Source: Actinomycetota bacterium
GTDB taxonomy: Bacteria; Actinomycetota; UBA4738; HRBIN12
Assembly (NCBI GenBank): GCA_035630755.1
Contig: DASQKC010000044.1
Location: 1-40,262 of the forward strand
Length of the DNA stretch: 40,262 bases
Reading direction: 5' to 3'
In this document: one piece after another, positions 3,332-40,262 of the stretch
How the letters are laid out: every line of letters begins with the position of its first letter
How positions within the stretch are numbered: position 1 is the stretch's first letter
Notes under the pieces: model-generated
The model's input: the letters and a program-made list of their open reading frames with translations, nothing else
Database searches by the model: none
Told to the model about the DNA's origin: nothing
Translations under genes and position numbers: made by a program

Positions 3332-3835
3332 TCAGGCGCCGGCGCCCGCGTCCCCGCCGGGAGCGCGGGACCCCAGCTCGCGGTCGAGCAACAGGAGCGA
3401 GGGCCCGCTGTCGCCGGCGAGCCGGAGCGTGTCGACGATCTGGCCGACCGTCTTCTCCTCCTCGACCTGCTCGGTGAGGAACCAGTCCAGGAACGCCTGC
3501 GTCAGCCGGTCGGACCGCTCGTAGAGCGCCTCGATCGCGCCGGTGACCTCCCGCTCGTGGGCGAGGGAGGCCTCGAACACCGTCAGCGGCGGGCCGAACT
3601 CGAGCGGTGGCGCGTCGATGGCGGCGAGCCGGACGCGCCCGCCCCGGTCGTTGATGTGCTCGAAGAACCGCATCGCGTGCTGGTGCTCCTCCTCGGCCTG
3701 GGCCCGCATCCAGCCGGCGAACCCCGGGTAGCCCGCGCTCTCGAAGTGCGCGCACATCGCAAGGTACAGGTACGACGAATACGATTCCTTCGTGAGCTGC
3801 TCGTTGAGCGCGGACTCCAGATCGGGTGCGAGCAT
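3332..3835 (-). CDS. ftn: non-haem ferritin
   Basis: 167 aa. LNEQLTKESYSSYLYLAMCAHFE...AEEEHQHAMRFFEHI fits the ferritin ferroxidase-centre pattern. Confidence 0.85.
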   Translation of the reverse strand: MLAPDLESALNEQLTKESYSSYLYLAMCAHFESAGYPGFAGWMRAQAEEEHQHAMRFFEHINDRGGRVRLAAIDAPPLEFGPPLTVFEASLAHEREVTGAIEALYERSDRLTQAFLDWFLTEQVEEEKTVGQIVDTLRLAGDSGPSLLLLDRELGSRAPGGDAGAGA

Positions 3836-3844
3836 CGGTTCCTC

Positions 3845-4237
3845 CTAGCCGGTCGGGAAGCGGTTGCGCATCGACTCCGCCGCCATCGTGAAGTAGTCGT
3901 CGAACGCGCGCCGGACGTCGGGATCGAGCTCGACCGCATCCAGCGCCGCCGTCATCGCCGTCAGCCAGCGGTCGCGGGCGTCTACGTCGATCGCGAACGG
4001 CGCGTGGCGCATCCGCAGCCGAGGGTGGCCGCGCTGCTGGCTGTAGGTGGTCGGTCCGCCCCAGTACTGCCCGAGGAACAGCGCGAGGTGCCGACGCGCG
4101 TCGGTCAGATCCTCGGGCGTCGGGTAGATCGCCAGGAGCGAGGGATCGGCGGCGACCGCGTCGTAGAACCGGTCGACGAGGGCATCGAAGAACGCCTGCC
4201 CTCCCACGCGGTCGTACACCGTCTCCGCCTGTGCCAT
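3845..4237 (-). CDS. glbO: group II truncated haemoglobin
   Basis: 130 aa. VYDRVGGQAFFDALVDRFYDAV...YWGGPTTYSQQRGHPRLRMRHAPF is the hallmark trHbO sequence. Lies 9 nt upstream of ferritin on the same strand. Confidence 0.85.
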   Translation of the reverse strand: MAQAETVYDRVGGQAFFDALVDRFYDAVAADPSLLAIYPTPEDLTDARRHLALFLGQYWGGPTTYSQQRGHPRLRMRHAPFAIDVDARDRWLTAMTAALDAVELDPDVRRAFDDYFTMAAESMRNRFPTG

Positions 4238-4283
4238 GCGCCGAGTCTACGGAACCGGGGTCGGGCCCCTAGGATGGCGCGCG

Positions 4284-4799
4284 ATGCGCCGCCTCTGGTT
4301 GCTCCGCCACGCGAAGTCGAGCTGGGACGACCCCGCACTGGACGACCACGAGCGTCCGCTCGCCGCTCGCGGCGAGCGGGACGCGGCGGCGATGGCCACA
4401 CACCTGCGCCGCGCCGAGGTGCGGCCGGACCTCGTGTTGTGCTCGTCGGCCGTCCGCGCCCGGGACACGTTGACCGGGGTGCTGCCGGGGCTGGGGCCGG
4501 ACCTGCGGATCGTGGTTGAGCGCGGCCTCTACACGTTCGAGCAGCGGCGCCTGGCCGACGCCGTCGCCGCGGCCACCGACCGCGCGGACGCGATCCTCCT
4601 GGTGGGTCACAACCCCGCGATCCAGGGCCTGGCCGAACGTCTCTCCGGCGAGGGCGACGAGCTCGACCGCCTCCGCGCGAAGTACCCGACCTGCGCGCTG
4701 GCGACGATCGACCTGGACATCGAGCGGTGGCCGGATCTGGCCGCCGGTTCGGGCGAGCTCGTCGGGTTCGTCACGCCCCGCGATCTGGCCCGGACGTGA
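4284..4799 (+). CDS. histidine phosphatase superfamily protein (SixA-like)
   Basis: Begins MRRLWLLRHAKSSW (catalytic RHA/G motif). I prefer the ATG at 4284 to the track start at 4236, because the family motif lies directly at the N-terminus. Confidence 0.75.
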   Translation: MRRLWLLRHAKSSWDDPALDDHERPLAARGERDAAAMATHLRRAEVRPDLVLCSSAVRARDTLTGVLPGLGPDLRIVVERGLYTFEQRRLADAVAAATDRADAILLVGHNPAIQGLAERLSGEGDELDRLRAKYPTCALATIDLDIERWPDLAAGSGELVGFVTPRDLART

Positions 4800-4800
4800 C

Positions 4801-4826
4801 GAGGGCGGCCCCGCGGGGCCGCCCTC
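4801..4826. terminator. perfect 26-nt GC palindrome between convergent genes (probable bidirectional terminator)
   Basis: GAGGGCGGCCCCG/CGGGGCCGCCCTC lies immediately after the stop at 4797-4799 and before the convergent gene end at 4846. Confidence 0.5.
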
Positions 4827-4845
4827 GACGTGGACCCTCCAGGTC

Positions 4846-5427
4846 TCAGTTGACCCAGATGTTCGTGGTGGCGTTGCCGGTGCAGTAGAAGGTGTCCTGA
4901 TCATCCTCCGGGACCCCGTCACCGTCATCGTCCCAAGCACCGGTGATGCCCATGACGTTGACCGAGATGTCGTGATCCGCGCCAGACTTCGCCTTCACGT
5001 TGATCTCGACCGTGGCCACCTTGTTCACATCACCACCGCCGACCTTCTTCGCCGTGGCGTACCCCCGCCACGTCAGCGAGCCATAGACAGCGCTGAAGTC
5101 CAGACCGCCCCCGGAGCAGTCACCGCTCGCCTCCAGCTCCGACGCGAGGTTCGCATGGTTGTCCATCTGGTCGGGCCCGCCGAACTTGCCGTTCGCGCCC
5201 CAGACGCCCTTGCCCACGCCGATGTCATCGGGCGCGGAGGTCCCCACCAGGAAGAACTGGAAGAACTTGTCCGTGTCCGGCACGTACGGGCGGACCGTGA
5301 ACCGGGCCTTCGTCGACTGTCCGGGTGACAAGCTGCTGTCGAGGATGACGAACCCCGTCAGCGCGAAGCACGAGGACAACACGACCGCCATGATGCCGGC
5401 GACGCCGACCACCAGAAGTCGTTTCAA
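4846..5427 (-). CDS. hypothetical lipoprotein
   Basis: 193 aa with a signal peptide and lipobox (VVLSSC). Acidic, Gly/Asp-rich mature part. No family recognised. Looks more A/T-rich than its surroundings by eye. Confidence 0.55.
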   Translation of the reverse strand: MKRLLVVGVAGIMAVVLSSCFALTGFVILDSSLSPGQSTKARFTVRPYVPDTDKFFQFFLVGTSAPDDIGVGKGVWGANGKFGGPDQMDNHANLASELEASGDCSGGGLDFSAVYGSLTWRGYATAKKVGGGDVNKVATVEINVKAKSGADHDISVNVMGITGAWDDDGDGVPEDDQDTFYCTGNATTNIWVN

Positions 5428-5581
5428 ATCGGAACCCCTTTCCCCTCATCCCGGCCTGCGCCGGGCCCCTCCGATCGGACCTGGTGATCCTGGCATCGGC
5501 GGCGGCCGTGTTCAACCTTGAATGGGCGAAGCGGTTTCACGCGGGGTTCCGGCGATGAGGGTCCGGGGCCCGAAGACCGAA

Positions 5582-5788
5582 CTACCGCAGCCCTTCCCAG
5601 CGCCACTCCACGTAGGCGAACTTCGCACCCGTGTTCGAGTTGCGGCCGACCCGGTAGAGGGGGGTGCTCTCCGCGTTCGGCACCCCGAGCTTCCGGGCGG
5701 CGTCACGGGCGGCGGCGAGCTGTTCGTCCTTCGTCGAGATGACGTCCCCCGTGCTCTCACTGAACGAGACCATGTAGCGATGTTCCAT
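5582..5788 (-). CDS. small conserved hypothetical protein (68 aa), paralogue of 17026-17232
   Basis: Translates as MEHRYMVSF...ARKLGVPNAESTPLYRVGRNSNTGAKFAYVEWRWEGLR. The C-terminal ~40 aa are near-identical to the product of 17026-17232. The internal ATG at 5788 is chosen because the homology starts there. Confidence 0.55.
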   Translation of the reverse strand: MEHRYMVSFSESTGDVISTKDEQLAAARDAARKLGVPNAESTPLYRVGRNSNTGAKFAYVEWRWEGLR

Positions 5789-5862
5789 CGCCACACGGTA
5801 CCGGCCGCCACCGACCCCTCCGGGCGGGGCGGCGGCGTCGCCGGCGCGCCCCGCCCGCCCAT

Positions 5863-6321
5863 TCAGCTCAACAGGTCGCAGATCTGGGTCGCGTGCCCGC
5901 GGTAGCTCTCGACGATGGCGAAGCCCATGTCGTCCAGCTCCCCGAACGTGATGTGGCCCGTCACGATGGCCCACCCGGTCCCCGCGATGGGCGCGGCCCA
6001 GCGGCCGGTGCCCATCGAGGAGCCGTCGGCGAAGTAGAACGTCGGCCCCGCGATCGCGAACGTCCTGGACCCCTCACCGTCCAGCCTCGTCCACGTGACG
6101 AACAACTTCCCGAGGGACATCGCGGTCCCGTCGTCGAACTCGATCAGGTGCGTCTTGCCTTGGACCGTCGCCTCCAGCGCGAAGTCGCAGATATCCGGGA
6201 ACGGGATCACCACCTCGAAGGGTTCTCCGCCGCTCTTCGTCGGCTTCCCGGCGATCGCGGGTGCCGCCGTCATCGCAACCGCCACGGTGACGAGCGCGGC
6301 GCATGCCAGTAGGCGCCTCAT
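5863..6321 (-). CDS. hypothetical secreted protein
   Basis: MRRLLACAALVTVAVAMTAAPAIAG is a signal peptide. The ATG at 6321 is preceded by a GGGAGGGG Shine-Dalgarno. No family recognised. Confidence 0.55.
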   Translation of the reverse strand: MRRLLACAALVTVAVAMTAAPAIAGKPTKSGGEPFEVVIPFPDICDFALEATVQGKTHLIEFDDGTAMSLGKLFVTWTRLDGEGSRTFAIAGPTFYFADGSSMGTGRWAAPIAGTGWAIVTGHITFGELDDMGFAIVESYRGHATQICDLLS

Positions 6322-6465
6322 AAACAATCCCCTCCCTCTCGTCGGTCGAACGACGCGACCGACCGCTCGACCGTATCGTTGCCCGGCAACCAGACGCAAG
6401 CCCGTGGAGCGGTCGCGAGGATCGATTTGCGCCGACAGGCGTTACCGGCCAGGATGCCCAAACGT

Positions 6466-6660
6466 ATGAGCATCTACCGATTGATCAGGGCAGAGTTCTC
6501 GGTCGACCATGGACGCGAGTGGTGGACGCTCACGTTCGACGATGGCACGGGCCGGGCGATGGTCCGTGCGCCCGAGCCGCCGCCCGAGCCGTTCACGTTG
6601 CTCGACCGTCGCAAGCTCTACTCCGAGCGAGAGCTCGACCGGTTGCGCGCCTCGTCCTGA
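6466..6660 (+). CDS. hypothetical small protein (64 aa)
   Basis: ATG-initiated ORF with reasonable third-position G/C usage. No homology recognised. Confidence 0.3.
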   Translation: MSIYRLIRAEFSVDHGREWWTLTFDDGTGRAMVRAPEPPPEPFTLLDRRKLYSERELDRLRASS

Positions 6661-6694
6661 GGCTCCGGCCTCGGGCACGCTGTACGGTCGGTGC

Positions 6695-7261
6695 ATGAGC
6701 AAGGTCGTGTACTTCACCGCCTGCACGCTCGATGGGTTCATCGCCGATGAACACAACTCGCTCGACTGGCTCTTCGAGACGCCGCACAGCGACCACGAGT
6801 CATCGTGGGACGAGTTCATCGGGGCCGTGGGCCCGATGTGCATGGGCCGCACGACGTACGAGTGGATGCTCGCCCACCATCCCGACCTCCTGACCGGTCC
6901 CGAGCGATGGGCGGCGTTCTACGGCGACCGTCCCGCGTGGGTGTTCACCCATCGCACGGACCTGCCGTCGGTCGTGGGCGCGGACATCCGGTTCGTGCAG
7001 GGCGATGTCCGTCCGGTGCACGACGAGATGCGGGCACGTCGGGACGGCGACGTGTGGATCATCGGGGGCGGCGACCTCGTGGGGCAGTTCGACGACGCCG
7101 GCCTCCTCGATCGCGTGATCCTCGGCGTGTGCCCGGTGACCCTCGGTGCAGGAGCGCCGCTGCTGCCGCGACGGATCACCTCCACGCGGATGCGCGTGAC
7201 CGACGTACGTCAGGAAGCGCAACAGGTCCGGATCGTGCTGGACCTGGACCGGAGGACCTAG
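6695..7261 (+). CDS. dihydrofolate reductase-family protein (RibD C-terminal domain type)
   Basis: 188 aa. MSKVVYFTACTLDGFIAD...MGRTTYEWM...WIIGGGDLVGQF fits the RibD_C/YyaP-like pattern. Start taken at the ATG at 6695 within the longer track ORF. Confidence 0.75.
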   Translation: MSKVVYFTACTLDGFIADEHNSLDWLFETPHSDHESSWDEFIGAVGPMCMGRTTYEWMLAHHPDLLTGPERWAAFYGDRPAWVFTHRTDLPSVVGADIRFVQGDVRPVHDEMRARRDGDVWIIGGGDLVGQFDDAGLLDRVILGVCPVTLGAGAPLLPRRITSTRMRVTDVRQEAQQVRIVLDLDRRT

Positions 7262-9362: not shown

Positions 9363-10313
9363 CTACGTCGCGGTGTCGGCGTTCGCGATCCCGTAGATCC
9401 CTGTCGAGAAGGTCCCGTCACACCGGGAGCGTTCGAAGAGCAGCGTGGTCGAGTCGTCCAACTCCTCGGCGCCGAACGACGAGAACACGTCCCTCCCGTC
9501 CGCGATCGTGGCGATGACCTGCTCGCTGCCTCCGAGCGGGAGACGGACCATGCTCACGTCCGTGCCGCAGACCCACTCGTCGGCCTCGCCGCCCCGAGCG
9601 AAGTAGACCGTGCCGTCGCTCGTGACGGACGAGCTGTACTGCTGCCCACCCGGGTTGGGGATCGTCGTCGTCGCGTCCGTGCTGATCCGGTAGACGAACA
9701 CCTCGCAGTGCGTGAACACGCCCTCCACGTAACGGCAGCGCTCCCACGTCGCCCAGTCGCCGCTGACCTGGTTGGTGACCACGTAGTTGGTTCGGCTGCG
9801 CCGGCTCGAGAGGACCCGCTGCTCCGAGGTATCGAGGTTGAACAGGACGACCCTTGTCCGGTTCTCCCCTCCACGCCCGGTCCTCATGAAGAACAACCAG
9901 TCGCCCGAGAGCGCCGGTTGGGACTCGTCCGCGGCGGTGTTGACCCCGTCGGGGGGCGCGCTCCGCTCGCGCGTCCCGAGGTCGAAGAACCGCAAGTCCG
10001 CGCCGTGCCTCCGGAACCGGTCGTAGACGACGTCCGAGCCGTCGATCCCGACCCCCAGGCTCTCACCCGCCCCGTTCAGGTGGATCCTGGGCTCACCGGC
10101 CGGCTTGACGAACGCGTCCCATCCCGAGTCAAGGGTGAAGTCGACCCACGCGAAGGCGCCACCCGATGCAGCCGGCCCCTGCTCGGCCACGCCGGGGCGG
10201 TTTCGCACGACGACCGGCGTCGCAGCGAAGGCAGCTTCCGCCACCAGGATCAGGCACGCGAACGCGGCGACCGAAGCGAGGCGGGCGCCCGCGGAGCGAC
10301 GACGAAGGACCAT
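9363..10313 (-). CDS. hypothetical secreted protein (possible beta-propeller)
   Basis: Signal peptide MVLRRRSAGARLASVAAFACLILVAEAAFA from the ATG at 10313. Lies upstream of, and co-oriented with, the ECF sigma gene. Confidence 0.6.
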   Translation of the reverse strand: MVLRRRSAGARLASVAAFACLILVAEAAFAATPVVVRNRPGVAEQGPAASGGAFAWVDFTLDSGWDAFVKPAGEPRIHLNGAGESLGVGIDGSDVVYDRFRRHGADLRFFDLGTRERSAPPDGVNTAADESQPALSGDWLFFMRTGRGGENRTRVVLFNLDTSEQRVLSSRRSRTNYVVTNQVSGDWATWERCRYVEGVFTHCEVFVYRISTDATTTIPNPGGQQYSSSVTSDGTVYFARGGEADEWVCGTDVSMVRLPLGGSEQVIATIADGRDVFSSFGAEELDDSTTLLFERSRCDGTFSTGIYGIANADTAT

Positions 10314-10413
10314 CCGTCCGACTCCTCTCAGCGGGCACCGTCGGTGAGACGCGATGACGCTACCCCAGGATCGCCCCACGGCGCAACCCGGCGTCCACGG
10401 AAGCGCGACCCTC

Positions 10414-10450
10414 GGGTGGGAGATGAGGGGCTCGAACCCCCGCTCCTTGT
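10414..10450 (-). repeat. displaced 3' fragment of tRNA-Val (att-like direct repeat of 18414-18450)
   Basis: The reverse complement reads ACAAGGAG-CGGGGGTTCGAGCCCCTCA-TCTCCCA-CCC. It contains the 19-nt T-arm block CGGGGGTTCGAGCCCCTCA identical to the intact tRNA-Val, plus the anticodon-loop side and a diverged acceptor 3' strand. It has no 5' half. Confidence 0.6.
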
Positions 10451-10488
10451 GAGCGTCGTGAGGCCGGGGACGACGTGTGGATCACTCG

Positions 10489-11433
10489 TCACGTCGAAGT
10501 TGGCGGAGGCAGACCTTCGCTTGCTGGCTGGCTGGTTGGCGCGTGAGTGTCCGACGGTGAAGCAGCGCGTCTCCACATCAGGACGAAGAGGAGAACGGTC
10601 GTGATGCCGATGGTGTTGAGGATCGTGATCGACACCGTGACCAACGGGTCGGCTCCGAAGGGGAAGATCATCATCAGGAGCATCGGAGCGATGTTGCGTA
10701 CCGCCGTGGTCGTCTCGGTCGCATGCCTGATCCCCAGGTCATTGACTCGAAGACCGGAAACGAGAAGGTAGCCACACCCGAGGCCGATGAAGGGTCCGGC
10801 GATGGCCGCGATGTAGCTCTCGGTCCCCCAGGTCTGCACGAACAGATCCCAGTACGCAACGAGCGTGAAGTTGAGATTGAAGAGCAGACACAGGATCGCC
10901 ACGCGCACGGCCCACCGCGCCAATGACGGCGTCAGGTCGGGCCACCAGACCCTGAAGCCGCACCCGAGAACCAGCGGCAAGAGCAAGAAGAGCAGCAGCG
11001 GCCACGCAACATCCCAGGCAGAGACCGTGAGTTGCGCATCAACCGCATCGACGGCCAGGGGCAACCCTAGCGGGAGGGCGACGATGGTCGCGACGGTCAA
11101 GACCACTAACAGCAGGGTGGATACGCGGACATCCGCTTTGGCTAACCGGGCGAGGAGTGGAGCGAAAGGCATACCGGCGCACAGGGCTGCAACACAGAAC
11201 CCGACCTTGATCTCTGCAGGGATGGACGAGGCGATCGTCAGCAGATAGCCGATGAACAGGAGCGGGATGAGGACGAAGTTGATCGCCAACGCCCACACGG
11301 CGACCTTCCAATGGGCGAAGGCCTGTGCCAGCAGCTTGCCGACCGATAGCCTGAGACCCAACCCGAACGCGTTCAAGATCACGAAGAGCACCCCGAACCC
11401 GTTGATCAGGACGGTCTCACTGGACTGATTCAT
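10489..11433 (-). CDS. BASS/SBF-like (bile acid:sodium symporter family) membrane transporter
   Basis: About 10 TM segments. The motif AALCAGMPFAPLLARLAKADV resembles the family CPGG...A.GD region. The ATG at 11433 is preceded by GGGAGGG. Clearly lower G+C by eye. Confidence 0.65.
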   Translation of the reverse strand: MNQSSETVLINGFGVLFVILNAFGLGLRLSVGKLLAQAFAHWKVAVWALAINFVLIPLLFIGYLLTIASSIPAEIKVGFCVAALCAGMPFAPLLARLAKADVRVSTLLLVVLTVATIVALPLGLPLAVDAVDAQLTVSAWDVAWPLLLFLLLPLVLGCGFRVWWPDLTPSLARWAVRVAILCLLFNLNFTLVAYWDLFVQTWGTESYIAAIAGPFIGLGCGYLLVSGLRVNDLGIRHATETTTAVRNIAPMLLMMIFPFGADPLVTVSITILNTIGITTVLLFVLMWRRAASPSDTHAPTSQPASEGLPPPTST

Positions 11434-11687: not shown

Positions 11688-11873
11688 ATGTCGCAGATGG
11701 CCGACCTGCTCGAGCGCGATCGCATCCGCTTGGGGTTCACGGTCGGCCAGATCGCCTACCGGCTCGGCATCTCGCCCGCGGAGTACCACTGCCTGATCGC
11801 CGGCGCACCGATCACGAGCTACGACACCTGGGAGCGGATCTCCGACCTGTACGGGTGGCCGGTAGCCCGCTAA
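11688..11873 (+). CDS. small Xre-type helix-turn-helix protein (intact copy of the head module)
   Basis: 61 aa. LLERDRIRLGFTVGQIAYRLGISPAEYHCLIAG fits the HTH_3 pattern. Its first ~70 nt recur at 13515 and 38023. Confidence 0.7.
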   Translation: MSQMADLLERDRIRLGFTVGQIAYRLGISPAEYHCLIAGAPITSYDTWERISDLYGWPVAR

Positions 11874-11883
11874 GTTCCGTTCG

Positions 11884-12222
11884 ATGACCGACAACTTCTC
11901 GACCGAGGTCAACGCAACGGACGAGGCCACGGTCATCCACGTCCGCGGCGAGATCGACATGGCGACCGCGGGACGCCTGCGAGACGCCATCGAACCCCAC
12001 ATGGGTCCCAAGCAGACCATCGTCTTGGACCTCTCCGAGGTCGAGTTCATGGACTCTTCGAGCCTGCACGTGCTCGTCCAAGCGCGCGGTCGACTCACCG
12101 AGAGCGGCGGCTCACTGGTCCTCCGCAACCCCTCGCGCGCCGCGCACCGGGTGCTCACCGTCGGCGGCGCCACCGATCTCCTCGAAACTGACGCCCGGGA
12201 TCACCCCTCAGATTCAAACTGA
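11884..12222 (+). CDS. STAS-domain anti-sigma-factor antagonist (SpoIIAA-like)
   Basis: 112 aa. VIHVRGEIDMATAGRLRDAI...IVLDLSEVEFMDSSSLHVLV carries the conserved phosphorylatable DSS motif. Confidence 0.8.
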   Translation: MTDNFSTEVNATDEATVIHVRGEIDMATAGRLRDAIEPHMGPKQTIVLDLSEVEFMDSSSLHVLVQARGRLTESGGSLVLRNPSRAAHRVLTVGGATDLLETDARDHPSDSN

Positions 12223-12325
12223 CCCACTATCTAGGTACCCTTCGCCGGATGAACCCCGCTGCGATCGGGGCCGGCTGGGACCTCGTGAAGCGGCTCGGCC
12301 AGACCACGCCCGCACCCTCCTCGCG

Positions 12326-12498
12326 GTGCTCGAGCTCCCCGACGATGCGCGGTGGGCGTTCACGTCCTCGATGTACCAGCGCGAGGACGGGCTGGCGCTC
12401 GCCGAGGTGCTGGCCGACGTGGAGTCTGACCTCACGAGTCTAACCTCACCGGCAAGACGCGGGAGCGGCTGATCGCGGGGCTGCATGCCGCCCTCGAC
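12326..12498 (+). pseudogene. tail-module copy B1: small ORF disrupted by a 14-bp tandem duplication
   Basis: From the GTG at 12326 it reads LELPDDARWAFTSSMYQREDGLALAEVLADVESDLT. The duplication GAGTCTGACCTCAC/GAGTCTAACCTCAC (12422-12449) then shifts the frame. The sequence TRERLIAGLHAALD continues out of frame. Confidence 0.5.
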
Positions 12499-13514: not shown

Positions 13515-13612
13515 ATGTCGCAGATGGCCGACCTCCTCGAGCGCGATCGCGAGCGGATGGGGTTCACGGTCGGCCAGGCCGCCTGATAGCGGGACTGCAC
13601 GCGGCGCTCGAC
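13515..13612 (+). pseudogene. head::tail fusion remnant (A2::B2, no cargo)
   Basis: ATGTCGCAGATGGCCGACCTCCTCGAGCGCGATCGC...GGGTTCACGGTCGGCCAGGCCGCC is head-module sequence (23 codons). It runs directly and out of frame into CTGATAGCGGGACTGCACGCGGCGCTCGAC, the tail-module end (LIAGLHAALD). Confidence 0.55.
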
Positions 13613-34507: not shown

Positions 34508-35005
34508 CTACGAGGCGCGGTGGAGCCAGCCCCGCAGGTGGATGGTCATCGCTGTCCGCTCGGTGGCCATGTCCACCTCGTAGGTCATCACGTCGCCCTC
34601 GACGCGGTACCGGCGCTCGAGACCGACGACGTCGAGCCCTGTGTGGGTCCGCCCCACGTCGCCCGGCCCCGCCACGAAGGTGATCGAGGAACCCACGGGC
34701 CGCCCGTGCGCGACCTCGACGAGCCCGAGCGGGTGCGCGAGGGTCAGCTCCACCTCGCCGTCGGCGCCCGGCCGGATGAACCCGCGCTCCAGGTGGATCG
34801 CGGCACCGTCGCCCGACCAGCTCGACTCGATCAGCGTGAGGTACGCGTCGCCGACGTGCCCGATCTCGATCGACTCCCGGTACGGGAACGGGTCGATCGT
34901 CGGGTACTCGCCCTCGCCGTCCCCCTCCCACGTCCCGAGCAGGAACGCGAGGGGCGCGAGGTCGGCATGCAGGGCCGGGGCGTCCACGGTGCGCGAACGT
35001 ACCAC
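34508..35005 (-). CDS. nitrobindin-like (FABP/DUF1794) haem-binding beta-barrel protein
   Basis: 165 aa. LAPLAFLLGTWEGDGEGEYPTIDPFPYRESI is the family N-terminal hallmark. Confidence 0.75.
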   Translation of the reverse strand: MVRSRTVDAPALHADLAPLAFLLGTWEGDGEGEYPTIDPFPYRESIEIGHVGDAYLTLIESSWSGDGAAIHLERGFIRPGADGEVELTLAHPLGLVEVAHGRPVGSSITFVAGPGDVGRTHTGLDVVGLERRYRVEGDVMTYEVDMATERTAMTIHLRGWLHRAS

Positions 35006-35040
35006 GGCCCCCCGACGCGCCGATCCGGTAGCGTGACGCC

Positions 35041-35817
35041 GTGCCCCGGCTCGATCGCATCTCGACGACGCCCGTGAAGGGCACCGCCCTGCACCACCCC
35101 GAGGCCGTGCGTCTGGACGCCGACGGGATCGCCGGGAACCGCCGTTTCCACCTCGCCGACGAGCGCGGCGACCTGTTGAGCGGCTACGACGAGGGCACGC
35201 TCGTCCAGGTCGTCGCCGCGTTCGATCCGTCCACGGACACGCTGCGGTGCGCGTTCCCCGGCGGGGAGGTCGTCGAGGGTACGGCCGGTGTGGTCGGCGA
35301 CGCGGTCGCGACCGTCTTCGACGAGCGCGTCGTCCAGGGTCACGTCGTCGAGGGGCCTTTCTCGGCCGCGTTCTCCGCGTACGTCGGCCGGCCCCTCCGG
35401 CTCGTGCGCGCCGACCGGGAGGGCGACGGCCCCGACGTCCACCGCCTCAGCCTGCTCTCGTTCGCGTCGGTCGAGGAGCTCGGTCGCCGCGGCGGCTACG
35501 ACGGCGACCTCGACGGTCGGCGTTTCCGCATGAACCTCGAGCTCGGCGACGCCGCGCCGTTCGAGGAGGACACCTGGGCGGAACGCGAGGTCGGGGTGGG
35601 GGACGCCGTCGTCCGCGTGCTCGGCCAGATCCCGCGGTGCCGCGTGACGAACCAGGATCCCGCGACCGGCGAGCACGAGTGGTCGACGCTGACGAAGATC
35701 GCCGGCTTCCGTCCGCTCATCGGAGGGAGCGGCCGGGGAATCCCGTTCGGGATGTACGCGGAGGTCGTCCGGCCCGGCGACGTTCGCATCGGCGACCCCG
35801 TCGCCCCGATGGCCTAG
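35041..35817 (+). CDS. MOSC domain-containing protein
   Basis: 258 aa. N-terminal beta-barrel (ISTTPVKGTAL) and MOSC motifs, including the conserved Cys in IPRCRVTNQDPATGE. Confidence 0.8.
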   Translation: MPRLDRISTTPVKGTALHHPEAVRLDADGIAGNRRFHLADERGDLLSGYDEGTLVQVVAAFDPSTDTLRCAFPGGEVVEGTAGVVGDAVATVFDERVVQGHVVEGPFSAAFSAYVGRPLRLVRADREGDGPDVHRLSLLSFASVEELGRRGGYDGDLDGRRFRMNLELGDAAPFEEDTWAEREVGVGDAVVRVLGQIPRCRVTNQDPATGEHEWSTLTKIAGFRPLIGGSGRGIPFGMYAEVVRPGDVRIGDPVAPMA

Positions 35818-35856
35818 CGGCCGCCGACGCCGAGTTCTGAACCCCGCCCGACTACG

Positions 35857-36933
35857 ATGCGCGGGATGAGCCGCGCCGGACACCTGCTGCGCCGCATCGC
35901 GGCCACCGCCGTCTTCCTGACCGCCTGCGGGCACTACTCGGCGGGCGAGGGACCCGCCCCGCAGCTGGCTCCCACGCCCGGCGCGTCCACGACCGAGGCG
36001 TCCTCGCCGATCCCCGAACCCGTGGGGTCGACCTCGCTGACCGGCTGCGATCCGCTCACCGTCGCCACCGGCACCGTCGTCGCCGAGCGGGTCCGCGGGG
36101 ACACGGCCTGCGTGCCGGCGCTCGGCGCCGTGGCCTACCGGTGCGACCCGAGCGTCGACCCCATGGTGGTCCTGGGCCTGTCTGGGCAGATGAAGCGGTT
36201 CGCCGGCGGACGGTTCGCCGTCCCCGCCCTCGCCGTCCCCGAGGACGCCGTCGACGTCGGCGTGACATCCGCGGGCCGGCTCTGGGTCGTCGACGGCGGC
36301 GGCCACGACGCCCTGTACGTCGAGGGGTCCGAGGGCGTCCGCCGTTGGCTCCCGCTCCCCTCCCGCAACGCCGTCGCCGACCCGCCCCAGGCCGTGGTGA
36401 TCGGCGACTCGCTGATGGACGGCTCGCAGGAGGAGCTGGTCGCGGCGCTCCCAGACTGGTCCCTCGCGATCGACGCCGAGATCGGCCGCGGCTCGTTCGG
36501 CGCCGCCGGCGTCGCCGAGGCGCTCCCGCTGCCGATGCCCGACGTCGTCGTCGTCGAGATCGGCACGAACGACGCCGACGCGGCGACCTTCTCGGGGAAC
36601 CTCCAGCGGATCGCGACGGCCGCCGACTCGCCCCAGCTGCTGCTCTGGCTGACCGGGCACGGGCCGGACTCCACGATCGATCTGGTGAACCGCGCGATCT
36701 TCGCCGGGATGGCCGGCCAACCCCAGGGCGCGGTCCTCGACTGGGACACCCTCGTCCCCGCCGACGCCCTGGACCCCGACGGCGTCCACCTGCTCGGCGA
36801 CCGCCAGCACGTGATGGCCGACCTCATCGCCGACCGTCTCGCCGCATGGCAGGACGCCGTCACCGGCGAGGGCACCACAGGTTGCGAGGGCGCTGTGCGA
36901 GCGGCGGCGCGCCGCGCCGACGGCGTCGCGTGA
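35857..36933 (+). CDS. lipoprotein with C-terminal SGNH/GDSL hydrolase domain
   Basis: Lipobox (FLTAC). SGNH blocks VVIGDSLMDG, EIGTNDA and DGVHLL. Confidence 0.65.
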   Translation: MRGMSRAGHLLRRIAATAVFLTACGHYSAGEGPAPQLAPTPGASTTEASSPIPEPVGSTSLTGCDPLTVATGTVVAERVRGDTACVPALGAVAYRCDPSVDPMVVLGLSGQMKRFAGGRFAVPALAVPEDAVDVGVTSAGRLWVVDGGGHDALYVEGSEGVRRWLPLPSRNAVADPPQAVVIGDSLMDGSQEELVAALPDWSLAIDAEIGRGSFGAAGVAEALPLPMPDVVVVEIGTNDADAATFSGNLQRIATAADSPQLLLWLTGHGPDSTIDLVNRAIFAGMAGQPQGAVLDWDTLVPADALDPDGVHLLGDRQHVMADLIADRLAAWQDAVTGEGTTGCEGAVRAAARRADGVA

Positions 36934-36949
36934 GAGGATGCCGCGCGTC

Positions 36950-37026
36950 GGGGCGGTAGCTCAGTCGGTAAGAGCAGCGGACTCATAATCCGTCGGTCGC
37001 AGGTTCGAGCCCTGCCCGCCCCACCA
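36950..37026 (+). tRNA. tRNA-Met (anticodon CAT; elongator-type by sequence, Ile2 not excluded)
   Basis: 77-nt cloverleaf. GGGGCGG-TA-GCTC-AGTCGGTAA-GAGC-A-GCGGA-CTCATAA-TCCGT-CGGTC-GCAGG-TTCGAGC-CCTGC-CCGCCCC-A-CCA. CCA is encoded. Confidence 0.9.
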
Positions 37027-37028
37027 CT

Positions 37029-37046
37029 GAACCCGCAGGTAGATGG
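37029..37046 (+). repeat. 18-mer GAACCCGCAGGTAGATGG, copy next to tRNA-Met
   Basis: Identical to 18394-18411. Begins 2 nt after the encoded CCA. Confidence 0.8.
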
Positions 37047-37159
37047 CCCTCTAGGGCGCTCCGAGGTCAACGGCCGGCGCTGGTGCGCATCGCGGTATGG
37101 GGATACTTCGCGGTCGCCGTCGTCCGGGCCGTGGGGATCTCCAGCGTGAGGTTTACCTG

Positions 37160-37375
37160 ATGGCCGAGCGAACGATTCCGACCGATATCGGCTACGGCCG
37201 CGCGCCGTCACCCCCGACCGCCGAGGCCGCGGCGCTCGAGTACTGGTCCAACCGCATCAGCTTCGGGTCCTTCGCGCCGCGCCCCCCGATCGAACGGTGG
37301 CGGCCCGACCAGCGCGAGCGGTTCGAAGCCGAGCTGCGGCGACTGGAGCGTCACGGCCCCGGCACAGCTCCATAA
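37160..37375 (+). CDS. hypothetical small protein (71 aa)
   Basis: ATG-initiated ORF (MAERTIPTDIGYG...). No family recognised. Confidence 0.35.
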   Translation: MAERTIPTDIGYGRAPSPPTAEAAALEYWSNRISFGSFAPRPPIERWRPDQRERFEAELRRLERHGPGTAP

Positions 37376-37537
37376 GCGTTCGCGGGGTCCTTGTCCGCCC
37401 CGAGAACGGCCCGGCCCTCCGCCGGGCGTCATCGAATGGGAGGAGCGCCCCGGGTCCACCCGGGGCTTCCTCTCGGTCGCTGCGGGCGTCGTGGCGTGTG
37501 GGGTGCGGCTTATGCTTCGGCGCGATCAGGGGGGGTC

Positions 37538-38012
37538 ATGCGCATGGAGCAACGGAAGCTCGCCGGGGTCTGGGCGGTCGGTGCTCGGGTCGCGCTCCTC
37601 ATCGGCTTGTCGCTTCCCTGGCTCGTCCGCCCGGGCAATGATGCCGACCCCCTCGCGGTCGAACGGTCGACCTGTGGGAGCTCATGGTCGCCGTCGGTCT
37701 CGCCGTGACCGCGATCGGGATCGCCCTGCTCAGCTCGCGGGCATCGGCGATCCGGCTCGGCTGGGCGCGCTCCTGGTCCTCGCCTTCGTCGCGCTCGCCG
37801 TCGTGCTGGCCGAGTACGCCGAGCACGCCGAGTACGCCGAGGAGTACGCCACCTTCGATTCGTCGGACTTGGAGGTAGGGTCCGGCATGGTCACGGTGAT
37901 CTTCGCCGCAGCAGCGACGGTCGTGGACGCGTCGTTCGTGCTGCTGCGCCAAGGAGGTCCCCCCAGCGGTCGGACCCCCTGTGCCGCCGCCTCCGTCGTG
38001 AGGCCGCGCTAG
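37538..38012 (+). pseudogene. membrane-protein remnant spread over three frames
   Basis: Hydrophobic helices appear successively in different frames: LAGVWAVGARVALLIGLSL, then MVAVGLAVTAIGIALL, then LGALLVLAFVALAVVLA and MVTVIFAAAATVVDASFVLL. Contains a 9-bp repeat run at 37809-37850 (EYA-EHA-EYA-EEYA). Confidence 0.35.
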
Positions 38013-38022
38013 CCTGCGGGCC

Positions 38023-38436
38023 ATGTCACAGATGGCCGCCCTCCTCGAGCGCGATCGCATCCGCTTCGGGTTCACGGTCGGCCAGGCCGCCTTACCGGCT
38101 CGCTCTTTCCCGACCGCCCTCCGCGCGAGAACCAGTCTCCGGATTGACCCGAGGGTTCGTCCGCGCGGGTCGATGGGGTCGCAGGTATACGCTCGCCATA
38201 GATGCAACGGGTCAAGTCGATCTTGGTCAGGGTTTGGGCATGGCTCTCTCGCCACCCAAACGACGATCCCGATCGGCCCCAGCACGCGCCGTTCTCGTCT
38301 GGCAGGCCGCACGGACAAGGCGGGGCGGGCGGCTAGCGGCGAGGCCATCTCACCCCCGGAGTACCGGCGCCTGATCGCCGGGGAGCCGGTCCAACGCGCG
38401 GGCTGCCGGTTGACCCAACGCGCGGGCGCTCGTTAG
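38023..38436 (+). pseudogene. head-module copy A3: Xre-type HTH gene interrupted by a ~240-bp insertion
   Basis: MSQMAALLERDRIRFGFTVGQAA matches 11688 onward up to about 38102. Homology resumes at about 38344 (ISPPEYRRLIAG against ISPAEYHCLIAG). Confidence 0.55.
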
Positions 38437-38437
38437 C

Positions 38438-38989
38438 GTGCGGACCGTGCGCCGCATCATCGTCCTCGCCCTCGCTCTCGCCGTCGTGCTGGGCGCCGCC
38501 GTGCCGTCCGCCGGCCGTGGCGGGATCCCCCGGGGCCGCTACGCGATCGGGGACTCGGTGATGCTCGGCGCGGCCGAGCACCTACGAGCCCGCGGGATCC
38601 AGGTCCACCCCCACGCCCGCGCGCGGCAGTTCGGCGACGCGCTCGGGATCGTCCGGCACCTGAAGCGCGACGGCCGCCTGAAGCGCAAGATCATCGTCCA
38701 CCTCGGCACGAACGGGGTCGCGATCGACCCCGACAACTGCGATGCGCTGGCGCGGTCCGTCGGCCGGGACCGCCGCCTGTTCTTGGTCACGATCAGGATC
38801 GAGCGGACCTACCGGCGGGCGCAGAACGCCCGGCTCACCCAGTGCGCGAACCGGCACCGCAACACACGGCTGATCGACTGGTACGCCTACAGCCACGACC
38901 ACCCGGGCTGGTTCTACAGCGACGGCTACCACCTGAACGGCACCGGCCGAGTCCGCTACGCCGATCTGCTCGATCGGCGGACCAGCTAG
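38438..38989 (+). CDS. secreted SGNH-hydrolase-like protein
   Basis: Signal peptide. SGNH blocks YAIGDSVMLG, VHLGTNG and SDGYHLN. Confidence 0.7.
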   Translation: MRTVRRIIVLALALAVVLGAAVPSAGRGGIPRGRYAIGDSVMLGAAEHLRARGIQVHPHARARQFGDALGIVRHLKRDGRLKRKIIVHLGTNGVAIDPDNCDALARSVGRDRRLFLVTIRIERTYRRAQNARLTQCANRHRNTRLIDWYAYSHDHPGWFYSDGYHLNGTGRVRYADLLDRRTS

Positions 38990-39033
38990 TCCCGCCCAAG
39001 CTGCCCCGTTCCGCTGGCGCAGCTCATCCCACG

Positions 39034-39119
39034 CCGAGGTGCTGGCGGATGTCGAGCAGGACCTCACCGGCAAGACGCGGGAGCGGCTGATCGCGGGGCT
39101 GCGCGCGGCGCTGGACTAA
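39034..39119 (+). repeat. tail-module copy B8 (5'-truncated)
   Basis: GCCGAGGTGCTGGCGGATGTCGAGCAGGACCTCACCGGCAAGACGCGGGAGCGGCTGATCGCGGGGCTGCGCGCGGCGCTGGACTAA encodes AEVLADVEQDLTGKTRERLIAGLRAALD-stop. It has no start codon and lacks the SSMY part. Confidence 0.6.
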
Positions 39120-39241
39120 CCCACTTGTCCGGCGCTTGTCCGGCGAGACACACCGATAACCGGCGCGAATCCTTGAGTAACGTTCAGCACCAAAGCCGCA
39201 GGTAGAACGGGGTGCGGCGCCCTCGACCATAGCGGGGTGAA

Positions 39242-39290
39242 CGGACTCATTATCCGTCGGTCGCAGGTTCGAGCCCTGCCCGCCCCACCA
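39242..39290 (+). repeat. direct repeat of the tRNA-Met 3' half (attR-like)
   Basis: CGGACTCATTATCCGTCGGTCGCAGGTTCGAGCCCTGCCCGCCCCACCA matches 36978-37026 at 48 of 49 positions. The upstream sequence cannot form the acceptor 5' strand or the D arm. Confidence 0.85.
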
Positions 39291-39731
39291 ACATCTACCT
39301 GTAGGAACGCTGCTCGCTCGCGATCGGTGCACGGTGATCGCTGCCAAGATCGCTGCCATCTCGGCGGTAGCCGGCCCCATCTCAGCGGGAATGCGGGTCG
39401 GTCCGGGGAAACGGGTGATCTACCGCGGGGACCAGGGGGTGGGGAGAAAGTCTGAGCCGTCGGTGAGTGCGTTGGGAGTCCCAGCGCACACATCTGCCGA
39501 TTCCCCGATCCGTGCCACCCCGCCGGGGTCCCGCGGGGCCTGGATCGCTGCCAACGGCACCAAATTCACCGACAGCCCATCGGTCGACCCGCCTCCGGAA
39601 CGGAGACCCGCAGCTCGGTGACCTCGTCACCCCGAGGGCATCCGGCGTCGCACCGGATCCGCCGCGACGGTCCCCGCCAGCACCACGACGGCACCCATGG
39701 GCACCCCCCGGGCCGTGTGCCGGCCCATCCC

Positions 39732-40262
39732 CTATCCCACGCTTCGTCGAGCCGACGACCGAGCCAGCACGTAGGCGCGCCTTGTCTCCATCTCCCCGGG
39801 AAGGGGCTGACGTTCGTGCCTGGCCTCGACGGCGAACCCGGCGCTCTCCAGGTGGTCGATCACACCCTCCGGCTCGAGGAGCCTGAAATCGAGGTCGGGG
39901 ACCTCTCGTCCCCACCAATCGTCGTGCCGAACCTCGGACCCGATGTGGAAGACGACGAGGAAGAGGCCACCCGGCCGGACCACTCGGCGGACCTCATCGA
40001 AGGCGGGGCGGAGTTCTCCGGGCGCGAGATAGATGAAGGAGTAGAACGCAACGGCCGACCCGAACTCGCTCTCGGTTGCCGGGAGCGCCAGGAGATCGCC
40101 TTCCCGGAACTCCACGGTCGTGTGTTCCCGACGGGCGATCTCGATCATCCGGGATGAAAGATCGATACCGACGGCGGGATGGCCGTGGCCCGCGAGCCAG
40201 GCTGCGACGTGCCCGGGTCCACAACCCAGATCGACGATGGGCGCACCGTCCTCGGTCTGCTC
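39732..40262 (-). CDS. class I SAM-dependent methyltransferase (5' end outside window)
   Basis: The frame stays open to the window edge. Motif I VDLGCGPG lies upstream of the track start, followed by VAFYSFIYL and the post-I/II pattern. Confidence 0.8.
   Translation of the reverse strand, partial: EQTEDGAPIVDLGCGPGHVAAWLAGHGHPAVGIDLSSRMIEIARREHTTVEFREGDLLALPATESEFGSAVAFYSFIYLAPGELRPAFDEVRRVVRPGGLFLVVFHIGSEVRHDDWWGREVPDLDFRLLEPEGVIDHLESAGFAVEARHERQPLPGEMETRRAYVLARSSARRSVG

What the first reader, a model, noticed from the sequence alone, without database searches (positions are those of the whole stretch)
36950..39305. Second islet: tRNA-Met with a 49-nt direct repeat of its 3' half 2.2 kb downstream
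Positions 36978-37026 and 39242-39290 are identical at 48 of 49 positions, from anticodon stem to CCA. Between them are a small ORF, a membrane-protein remnant readable only across three frames, and an interrupted head module. An SGNH hydrolase gene and a tail module complete the interval. No integrase is present. The unit is far smaller than typical integrative elements, so it is either a heavily deleted remnant or a non-autonomous element mobilised in trans.
Basis: partly seen in the sequence, partly recalled or inferred. Interest (0 to 1): 0.6.

Follow-up and report, generated by a model that had tools for sequence, protein, structure and literature searches.

The report
Decayed mobile-island remnant at tRNA-Met
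The repeat is real and marks the two ends of a small, worn-down piece of mobile DNA that once inserted into a tRNA-Met gene and has since lost its own insertion enzyme; this is a common kind of genomic scar, seen here in an uncultured high-GC actinobacterium.

Summary
tRNA-Met(CAT) lies at 36950-37026. A 48/49 copy of its anticodon-stem-to-CCA part lies at 39242-39290. These are the only two copies in the 2.08-Mb MAG.

The pair has the standard attL/attR signature of a tyrosine-integrase element inserted into a tRNA gene.
- Five relatives carry displaced tRNA-Met halves that start at the same tRNA position. They sit 2.7-14 kb from the intact gene and enclose unrelated cargo.
- One same-order relative (G029) has an integrase, an excisionase-like gene and a Rep gene directly after the homologous tRNA-Met.
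- The 11-mer CCGCAGGTAGA flanks both ends of the islet, arranged like the arm-type integrase sites of pSAM2-type AICEs.

The islet has no integrase, and the MAG has only the two Xer-type recombinases.
- The "tail module" is the last ~30 codons of a small ~80-aa gene. In the closest relative this gene forms the att-proximal end of an integrase-bearing island.
- The "head" is a broken 61-aa Xre-type HTH gene.
- The SGNH-like gene is intact. It is a within-lineage paralog of a genus-core gene.

Three independent assemblies (99.7-99.8% identical) all carry the islet, and no empty site was seen. An older island appears to follow the displaced half, which suggests tandem accretion.

Verdict: an ordinary decayed integrative-element remnant of the CIME type. 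Whether it can still move is untested.

The parts
36950..37026 (+). Intact tRNA-Met(CAT), the regenerated target gene
   Evidence: ARAGORN. Rfam tRNA at 74.6 bits.
36978..37026 (+). attL identity segment (anticodon stem to CCA)
   Evidence: Direct repeat D3, 48/49.
37029..37046 (+). 18-mer GAACCCGCAGGTAGATGG (core 37033-37043). Putative P' arm-type integrase-binding site.
   Evidence: Three exact copies of the 11-mer in the window, all beside tRNA-derived sequence. With one mismatch allowed there are 7 matches, against 0.51 expected by chance. GCAGGT(A/C)(A/G)A lies at the same place after tRNA-Met in G005, G018, G015 and G029, and in a Frankia-labelled contig.
37157..37375 (+). Orphan ORF of 72 aa (92 aa from the ATG at 37097)
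   Evidence: No Pfam or NCBIfam hit. No homolog in 40 relatives.
37539..37964 (+). Membrane-protein-like pseudogene: four hydrophobic segments spread over three frames
   Evidence: Three-frame translation. No intact homolog. Indels differ in the JGI contig.
38023..38391 (+). Broken Xre-type HTH 'head' gene. Codons 1-23 are at 38023-38091, an unrelated ~230-nt insert follows, and codons ~20-42 are at 38323-38391. The C-terminus is missing.
   Evidence: blastn and tblastn against the intact copy at 11688-11873. HTH_31, E = 2.3e-7.
38438..38989 (+). Intact SGNH/GDSL-like secreted hydrolase gene (183 aa)
   Evidence: 81% aa identity to the own-genome paralog C179:1304-1843, and no more than 54% to homologs in 19 of the 24 genus relatives. 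GDS, GTNG and DGYH motifs read from the sequence. No profile hit.
39012..39119 (+). 'Tail': the last ~28-34 codons plus stop of a small ~80-aa gene that forms the att-proximal end of the island family
   Evidence: tblastn. Intact 79-94-aa homologs exist in metagenomes. In G017 the gene abuts tRNA-Leu and tmRNA, and lies on the same contig as an integrase.
39196..39206 (+). CCGCAGGTAGA, putative P arm-type site, 35 nt before attR
   Evidence: G016 has two direct copies in the same position.
39242..39290 (+). attR identity segment: the displaced tRNA-Met 3' half
   Evidence: Sub-threshold tRNA score of 22.6 bits.
39293..39304 (+). Inverted motif TCTACCTGTAGG. Probably the start of an older island, or the native flank.
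   Evidence: The same motif follows displaced halves in G005, G024 and G001, and the intact tRNA-Met of G002. It also follows tRNA-Val here and tRNA-Leu in G017.
39583..39690 (-). 108-nt fragment of an SSB-like gene (97% identical to C25:2321-2427)
39732..40262 (-). SAM methyltransferase gene in the right-hand (older) island. It runs off the window.
   Evidence: Pfam Methyltransf_25, E = 2e-20. The JGI contig shows a minus-strand tail fragment about 200 nt beyond the window end.

Best explanation
The interval 37027-39241 is the decayed remnant of a tyrosine-integrase integrative element of the actinomycete AICE / genomic-island kind.

**How it arose (inferred)**
- The element recombined with tRNA-Met(CAT) at the anticodon loop.
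- Its own copy of the tRNA 3' part regenerated the gene (attL, 36978-37026).
- The original 3' half was displaced 2.26 kb downstream (attR, 39242-39290).
- The 11-mer CCGCAGGTAGA sits just inside each end. It most likely represents the integrase arm-binding sites of the former attP.
- The integrase would have lain next to the tRNA, as it does in relative G029. It and any excision, replication or transfer genes have been deleted.

**What is left**
- An orphan ORF.
- A frameshifted membrane-like gene.
- An interrupted Xre-type regulator gene.
- An intact SGNH-like hydrolase paralog.
- The last ~30 codons of the small terminal 'tail' gene.

**Status**
- With both att sites intact and no recombinase, it matches a cis-mobilizable element (CIME).
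- It is immobile on its own and fixed in the sampled population.
- It sits in tandem with an older island that starts at 39291.

**Shown versus inferred**
- Shown: the repeat, its position in the tRNA, the gene decay, the absence of an integrase, and the comparative pattern.
- Inferred: the crossover point, the role of the motif, the order of insertions, and the present immobility.
For: 1. The repeat is exact in form and unique in the genome.
2. Displaced tRNA-Met halves begin at tRNA positions ~24-30 and run to the 3' end in G005 (14.4 kb from the gene), G001 (2.7 kb), G035 (6.5 kb), G016 and G024. The content read between them in G005 and G001 is unrelated to this islet. This is the Islander island signature (PMC4383910).
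3. In G029 the homologous tRNA-Met is followed by GCAGGTCA, a 374-aa Phage_integrase gene facing the tRNA, an HTH_17 excisionase-like gene and a Rep gene.
4. A Frankia-labelled contig has tRNA-Met followed by CCGCAGGTAGA, next to a pSAM2-type RepSA gene.
5. The motif copies flank the identity segment as direct repeats once the ends are joined. G016 has two copies in its P arm. pACPL and pSAM2 attP sites have the same layout, and integrase binding is shown for pSAM2 (PMC3364876).
6. The tail gene is a real conserved ~80-aa ORF. In G017 it abuts tRNA-Leu and tmRNA, and shares a contig with a tyrosine integrase at the opposite end.
7. There is no integrase. PF00589 hits only C25 and C148. Every genus relative but one (G024, a single hit) carries at least two hits of this strength, which are taken to be the same Xer pair. 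No remnant is detectable.
8. GC content is 0.707 in the islet against 0.743 in the left flank.
9. JGI and ENA contigs, 99.7-99.8% identical, carry the same islet.
Against: - No integrase remnant is detectable, so the recombinase type is inferred from relatives only.
- No empty site was found in any close strain, so insertion is not directly demonstrated. Synteny with relatives is poor.
- The tail remnant lies at the displaced-half end. In islet 1 and in G017 the tail gene lies next to the intact tRNA. This requires a flipped attP core or a rearrangement.
- An inverted motif copy follows attR and is not fully explained.
- The genome is only 74% complete, so a cognate integrase could exist on unassembled DNA.
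Confidence: 0.8

Rival explanations
1. The islet is a still-active non-autonomous element, of the CIME or satellite kind. An integrase encoded elsewhere, in unassembled DNA of this genome or on an incoming sister element, excises and reinserts it, and a conjugative element transfers it.
For: - Both identity segments are 48/49 identical, and putative arm motifs are kept at both ends.
- Related integrases exist in the genus, for example G017 contig C131.
- CIMEs are mobilised in cis after accretion in streptococci and Streptomyces (PMC5704250).
- The MAG is 74% complete.
Against: - No integrase other than the Xer pair is present in the assembled genome.
- All three near-identical assemblies carry the islet in the same state, and no empty-site or circle junction was recovered.
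- The islet's regulator and tail genes are broken.
Confidence: 0.12
2. The head...tail bracket is a dedicated cargo-capture slot. New genes such as the SGNH copy are inserted between a conserved Xre head and the tail, for example at the 20-mer CGCGGGAGCGGCTGATCGCG. The tRNA repeat would then be incidental to that process.
For: - Head and tail bracket different cargo in three places: a STAS gene at 11688-12498, nothing at 13515-13612, and the SGNH gene at 38023-39119.
- The 20-mer occurs six times at 90% identity or more.
- The SGNH gene is a captured paralog of a host gene.
Against: - Homology among the tail copies ends at the tail gene's stop codon.
- The copies look like 5'-truncated pieces of one coding sequence with frameshifts, which is what decay produces.
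- No dedicated recombinase, attC-like structure or conserved boundary was found.
- The 20-mer lies inside the most conserved codons of the tail protein, so protein constraint explains its conservation.
Confidence: 0.05
3. The 49-nt copy is a tRNA pseudogene fragment made by a non-site-specific duplication or rearrangement. The DNA in between is ordinary chromosomal DNA.
For: - No integrase is present.
- One cargo gene is a paralog of a host gene.
- Partial tRNA fragments are common in prokaryotic genomes (PMC9897764).
Against: - The fragment boundary coincides with the anticodon stem in six species.
- The fragment is in direct orientation and extends exactly to CCA.
- Motif repeats flank it.
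- An integrase element occupies the same site in G029.
- The intervening DNA has lower GC, and most of it (the orphan ORF, the membrane-like remnant, the head and the tail) has no counterpart in relatives or is found only in the closest one.
Confidence: 0.03

Closest known systems
CIMEs (cis-mobilizable elements): decayed ICE/IME derivatives that keep attL and attR. Defined for ICESt1-related elements of Streptococcus thermophilus (Pavlovic 2004; Bellanger 2011; reviewed in PMC5704250).
   Same: - It is bounded by two att sites, one of them inside the 3' end of the target gene.
- It lacks integration and transfer genes.
- It apparently lies in tandem with another island at the same site.
   Different: - The host is an uncultured high-GC actinobacterium, and the target is tRNA-Met.
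- The islet is only 2.2 kb.
- Cis-mobilisation is untested.
- The parent element type is inferred, not known.
[quoted passage not shown]
   Same: - The identity segment is ~43-58 nt and overlaps a tRNA 3' end.
- Short repeats flank the identity segment, like the pSAM2/pACPL arm-type sites.
- An Xre-type regulator is present.
- Tandem insertions and remnants are described for AICEs.
- The homologous site in G029 holds int, a xis-like gene and a rep gene, and a Frankia-labelled contig holds RepSA.
   Different: - The islet has no int, xis, rep or tra gene.
- The motif CCGCAGGTAGA only resembles the published repeat (GTCACCCAGTTAG...).
- The small 'tail' gene is not a described AICE gene.
tDNA genomic islands as defined by Islander (PMC4383910).
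   Same: An intact tDNA plus a co-oriented displaced 3' fragment marks the ends of the island.
   Different: It fails Islander's integrase filter and would not be called an island. At 2.2 kb it is much smaller than the AICEs and relatives' islands compared here (10.9-17.3 kb and 2.7-14.4 kb).
Tandem islands at the tmRNA gene ssrA of Dehalococcoides (PMC3146451).
   Same: Repeated site-specific insertion at one small-RNA gene.
   Different: The paper was seen only as a search result, and only its abstract was read. The target gene, phylum and cargo differ.

Membership tests
tRNA-targeting genomic island (Islander signature) | Intact tDNA plus a displaced fragment of the same tDNA, in direct orientation on the same replicon | tested here: met
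   36950-37026 and 39242-39290, 48/49, same strand.
tRNA-targeting genomic island (Islander signature) | The fragment runs from a tRNA stem-loop (anticodon or T) to the 3' end, so that the gene is regenerated | tested here: met
   The repeat starts in the 5' strand of the anticodon stem and ends at CCA. Five relatives have the same start.
tRNA-targeting genomic island (Islander signature) | A tyrosine integrase gene inside the interval | tested here: not met
   No PF00589 hit in the window. No tblastn remnant.
tRNA-targeting genomic island (Islander signature) | Strain- or species-variable content at the locus | tested here: met
   The cargo read at tRNA-Met differs in G005, G001, G002 and G017. 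The orphan ORF is absent from 40 relatives.
AICE (actinomycete integrative and conjugative element) | int, xis, rep (RepSA/RepAM) and FtsK-like tra modules | tested here: not met
   No ORF of the islet hits these families.
AICE (actinomycete integrative and conjugative element) | An att identity segment at a tRNA 3' end, flanked in attP by short integrase-binding repeats | tested here: inconclusive
   The identity segment is present. CCGCAGGTAGA lies at 37033 and 39196, so it would flank the core in the joined form. Integrase binding was not tested.
CIME (cis-mobilizable element) | Keeps attL and attR | tested here: met
CIME (cis-mobilizable element) | Has lost integration and transfer genes | tested here: met
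CIME (cis-mobilizable element) | Can be excised or transferred together with an element that integrates into one of its att sites | not testable with these tools
   This needs an experiment or read data.
Integron cassette array | An intI gene, an attI site, and attC sites with an R''-L''/L'-R' structure closing each cassette | tested here: not met
   No integrase is present. The tail copies are truncated pieces of one coding sequence, and their homology ends at its stop codon.
IS element / MITE | Terminal inverted repeats, a target-site duplication and, for an IS element, a transposase | tested here: not met
   The ends are 49-nt direct repeats of a tRNA part. No terminal inverted repeats appear in the repeat search. 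No ORF of the islet hits any Pfam family, transposases included.

The most novel reading that the evidence does not exclude
The islet belongs to an undescribed family of very small integrase-less tRNA/tmRNA islets. Each would be built from an Xre 'head', one or two swappable cargo genes and a conserved 5-helix 'tail' protein next to an arm-motif-bearing att site. On this reading the islets are not dead remnants. They would be satellites that integrases of sister islands (such as G017 contig C131) move in trans, and that pick up host genes such as the SGNH paralog.
Probability: 0.1. Interest if true: 0.6.

Novelty: new member of a known kind. Interest (0 to 1): 0.25.

Why it matters
The finding matters mainly as annotation.
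- It explains a tRNA fragment, several pseudogenes and a lower-GC patch in a MAG of an uncultured actinobacterial genus.
- It shows that tRNA-Met, like tRNA-Val, is a recurrent integration hot spot in this genus, where most islands have lost their integrase.
- It links the CCGCAGGTAGA motif and the small 'tail' gene to the ends of these islands. That gives handles for finding intact parent elements and for delimiting islands in related MAGs.
- If the islet proved mobilisable in trans, it would be a compact natural att cassette for high-GC actinobacteria. Nothing here shows that.

Tried and rejected
**Searches that found nothing useful**
- tblastn of the window with the G017 and G029 integrases gave no remnant above noise.
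- Exact-junction scans for an empty site or a parent element:
  - The metagenome scan found only a contig that carries the same islet.
  - The first genome-contig scan (junction pattern) found nothing.
  - The second genome-contig scan (motif pattern) found one relevant Frankia-labelled contig and two chance hits inside coding regions.
  - The viral-contig scan found nothing.
- Exact-protein look-up found two further assemblies, both with the islet. The SGNH protein itself is not on record elsewhere.
- The tail protein has no Pfam hit, and only a far-sub-threshold NCBIfam hit. Its AlphaFold model is a 5-helix bundle with pLDDT 87, and it has no PDB match with E below 1. The idea that it is a winged-helix excisionase is therefore not supported.
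- The composite membrane protein has no homolog in relatives.
- An Rfam scan of the islet at a permissive threshold gave only the tRNA, the sub-threshold fragment and chance hits.

**Ideas rejected**
- That the tail is the C-terminus of the integrase. I considered this because of a '..SSMYQ..' resemblance to box II. I rejected it because the tail gene has its own start, is preceded by a stop, is conserved as a 79-94-aa ORF, and lies at the opposite end of G017 contig C131 from the integrase.
- That the interior of the islet is simply inverted. This could not be settled and is recorded in the notebook as unexplained.
Full report
**Setting**

The window is the whole of contig C44 of a fragmented MAG. 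The MAG has 2.08 Mb in 189 contigs and is estimated 74% complete. The window's GC content is about 72%. Related contigs come from JGI and ENA metagenome assemblies.

**1. The observation**

- ARAGORN and Rfam find a complete tRNA-Met(CAT) at 36950-37026, scoring 74.6 bits.
- The repeat finder reports 36978-37026 and 39242-39290 as a 49-nt direct repeat with 48/49 identity.
- The repeat starts in the 5' strand of the anticodon stem and ends at the encoded CCA. The one mismatch is in the anticodon loop.
- The second copy has no matching 5' half. It scores 22.6 bits against the tRNA model, below the gathering score of 29, so it is a fragment.
- The last 20-30 nt of the repeat occur only at these two places in the genome. 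Chance is not a reasonable explanation.

**2. Content of the interval**

| Coordinates | Feature | Evidence |
|---|---|---|
| 37157-37375 | 72-aa ORF with no family and no homolog in 40 relatives | |
| 37539-37964 | Four hydrophobic segments across three reading frames | |
| 38023-38391 | Broken Xre-type 'head' gene | |
| 38438-38989 | Intact 183-aa SGNH-like ORF | |
| 39012-39119 | 'Tail' remnant | |

- *Membrane-like stretch.* No intact homolog was found, so 'remnant of one gene' is plausible but unproven.
- *Head.* It is the first 23 codons (38023-38091) and codons ~20-42 (38323-38391) of a small Xre-type gene. An unrelated insert of ~230 nt splits them. The intact 61-aa copy at 11688-11873 hits HTH_31.
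- *SGNH-like ORF.* It has a signal-peptide-like N-terminus and GDS / GTNG / DGYH motifs, but no Pfam or NCBIfam hit at the thresholds used. Its best relative is a paralog in the same genome (C179:1304-1843, 81% aa). That paralog sits beside a second family member, as in G001 and G019. Homologs in 19 of the 24 genus relatives are 35-54% identical. The gene is therefore a lineage-internal duplicate of a genus-core gene.
- *Tail.* It carries the last 28-34 codons and the stop of a small gene.

**3. What the tail is**

- A near-full but frameshifted copy lies at 12249-12498.
- The closest relative, G017, has the intact gene of about 80 aa, with its own GTG start preceded by an in-frame stop.
- A database search finds 20 metagenomic homologs, most of them 74-94 aa long, with 17 invariant positions.
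- The protein has no Pfam family. Its only NCBIfam hit is a far-sub-threshold one to a Thoeris protein (14.9 bits against a cut-off of 220), which I disregard.
- Its AlphaFold model is a five-helix bundle (pLDDT 87) with no PDB match below E = 1. Its function stays unknown.
- Its position is informative.
  - In G017 its stop codon faces the 3' end of tRNA-Leu(caa) on contig C203 and of the tmRNA gene on C113.
  - Contig C131 runs from a tyrosine integrase cut by one contig end to the start of the tail gene cut by the other. Ordinary cargo lies between.
  - In this window the last tail fragment of islet 1 faces tRNA-Val in the same way.
- The tail gene is therefore the att-proximal terminal gene of an island family. 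Its fragments mark former island ends.
- I first suspected it was an integrase C-terminus and rejected that idea. It has its own start and conserved size, and it lies opposite the integrase on C131.

**4. Is this an integration scar? Comparative evidence**

A DNA search of 40 relatives gives four lines of evidence.

- *(a) Displaced halves in relatives.* Besides a full tRNA-Met, five genomes hold a co-oriented fragment that covers the same part of the tRNA. It lies 14.4 kb from the gene in G005, 2.7 kb in G001 and 6.5 kb in G035. G016 and G024 also hold one, on contigs that end before the gene. In the alignment every fragment begins at tRNA position ~24-30 and runs to the 3' end. The DNA read between them (G005 and G001) is unrelated to islet 2 and holds no integrase.
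- *(b) Genomes without an island lack the fragment.* In G017 a response-regulator gene ends 22 nt after the tRNA, and no fragment is detected.
- *(c) An intact element at the same site.* In G029 (same order, another family) the homologous tRNA-Met is followed within ~100 nt by a 374-aa Phage_integrase gene whose 3' end faces the tRNA. An HTH_17 excisionase-like gene and a REP_ORF2-G2P replication gene follow.
- *(d) A recurring break point.* G002 carries a tandem duplicate of the promoter plus the tRNA 5' half, broken exactly in the anticodon loop.

Together these match the published signature of tyrosine-integrase islands in tDNAs (PMC4383910) and of AICEs (PMC2440964).

**5. The motif**

- CCGCAGGTAGA occurs exactly three times in the window:
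  - 3 nt from the end of tRNA-Val (18398);
  - 6 nt after tRNA-Met (37033, inside the 18-mer GAACCCGCAGGTAGATGG that is shared with the tRNA-Val site);
  - 35 nt before the displaced half (39196).
- With one mismatch allowed there are 7 matches, against 0.51 expected.
- After tRNA-Met, the related GCAGGT(A/C)(A/G)A stands at the same distance in G005, G018 and G015, in integrase-bearing G029, and in a Frankia-labelled contig. There it lies next to a frameshifted pSAM2-type RepSA gene.
- G016 has two direct copies before its displaced half.
- Joining the islet's ends gives an attP-like site in which direct repeats of the motif flank the identity segment. This layout is described for pACPL and pSAM2, where the integrase binds the repeats (PMC3364876).
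- I read the motif as an arm-type integrase site. This is an inference, since no binding data exist.

**6. No recombinase**

- PF00589 hits only C25 and C148 in this genome.
- The C25 protein reads as XerD-like from its sequence, which is my own judgement.
- All but one of the 24 genus relatives carry at least two hits of the same strength; G024 has one. I take these to be the same housekeeping pair.
- tblastn with the G017 and G029 integrases finds nothing in the window.
- By analogy with G029, the integrase would have lain just right of 37046. An orphan ORF and the membrane-like remnant now occupy that position.

**7. Population state and neighbours**

- A JGI contig (Ga0190270_10010679) is 99.7% identical over 35601-40262. 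An ENA contig (k141_5448827) is 99.8% identical over 35009-40254. Both carry the islet with the same architecture, and the ENA contig holds both 49-nt repeats exactly.
- No empty site was recovered.
- The JGI contig extends 523 nt past the window end. It shows a minus-strand tail fragment (..LTRKTREGPIAGLIAI..) after the methyltransferase gene.
- The displaced half is followed by the inverted motif TCTACCTGTAGG (39293-39304).
  - The same arrangement follows displaced halves in G005, G024 and G001.
  - It follows the intact tRNA-Met in G002.
  - It follows tRNA-Val here and tRNA-Leu in G017.
- The right flank also holds a 108-nt fragment of an SSB-like gene and has a GC content of 0.684.
- The simplest reading is tandem accretion. 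An older island of the tRNA-Val/Leu type already followed tRNA-Met, and islet 2 later entered the regenerated tRNA. Tandem insertions of this kind are described for AICEs and for ICE/CIME pairs (PMC2440964, PMC5704250).
- This is not proven, because the contig ends. It also leaves an orientation puzzle. In islet 2 the tail lies at the displaced-half end, whereas in the other cases it lies next to the intact tRNA.

**8. Conclusion**

- The interval is a decayed integrative-element remnant with intact att sites and no recombination genes. In the terms of the ICE literature it is a CIME (PMC5704250).
- It cannot move by itself. Whether an incoming relative could mobilise it is untested.
- I give about 0.8 to the remnant reading and about 0.1 to present-day trans- or cis-mobility.
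- I give little to the other two readings. One is a dedicated cassette-capture mechanism: the tail copies behave as eroded coding sequence, and the conserved 20-mer lies in the most conserved codons of the tail protein. The other is a non-site-specific duplication.

**9. Earlier notes of this scan**

Earlier notes on islet 1 and on the 18-mer reach compatible readings. I treated them as leads. I re-derived the tail-gene and motif points from my own searches.

**10. Novelty and interest**

- This is a new member of a known kind.
- The genus-wide pattern of integrase-less islets with a head, a tail and an arm motif is a modest curiosity.
- The finding itself is ordinary.

Noticed in passing
window 39583-39690 (minus strand): A 108-nt stretch is 97% identical to C25:2321-2427, where it forms the 5' part of an SSB-like ORF. 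Here it is an isolated gene fragment in the right flank of the islet.
   Followed up: partly
window 38438-38989 and genome contig C179:693-1873: The islet's SGNH-like gene is 81% identical (aa) to one of two tandem paralogs on C179, which lie beside tRNA-Ser(gga). The family is found only within the genus among the 40 relatives searched. The islet seems to have captured a host-lineage gene.
   Followed up: partly
L024 (G002:C18) 10297-10560: A ~140-nt tandem duplication of the promoter region plus the tRNA-Met 5' half ends exactly in the anticodon loop (..GGGGACTCA|). It looks like a footprint of an aberrant or reversed recombination at the same crossover point.
   Followed up: no
L027 (G029:C171) 3750-7258: An intact-looking small integrative element sits in the homologous tRNA-Met. 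It has a tyrosine integrase, a 329-aa unknown ORF, an HTH_17 excisionase-like gene and a REP_ORF2-G2P replication gene. The contig ends before its far att site.
   Followed up: partly
L048 (NZ_CADCWT010000280, labelled Candidatus Frankia alpina) 1-2024: tRNA-Met is followed after 4 nt by CCGCAGGTAGA, next to a pSAM2-type RepSA gene that is split over two frames. No xis or int lies between them.
   Followed up: partly
Alignment A1: G001, G005, G035 and the window: In each species the displaced tRNA-Met half carries the same species-specific T-stem variant as the resident tRNA (for example GTGG/CCAC in G001 and GCTGG/CCAGC in G035). Either the elements' attP cores track their hosts closely, or the two copies are homogenised.
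   Followed up: no
L051 (ENA k141_5448827) 1-433 compared with window 34576-35008: This contig is 99.8% identical to the window from 35009 onward, but its first 433 nt do not match the window's upstream THAP4-like gene region. This is either structural variation or a chimeric assembly.
   Followed up: no
L043 (G017:C113) 3-683: Here the tail reading frame has no stop after ..GLRAAL and stays open for 226 codons into the tmRNA gene on the opposite strand. Another frame of the same stretch reads like the C-terminal part of a recombinase-associated protein (my own impression, not tested).
   Followed up: no
window 13515-13612: The first 23 codons of the head gene run directly into the last 11 codons of the tail gene with nothing between. 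This shows that head and tail were once neighbours in one unit.
   Followed up: partly
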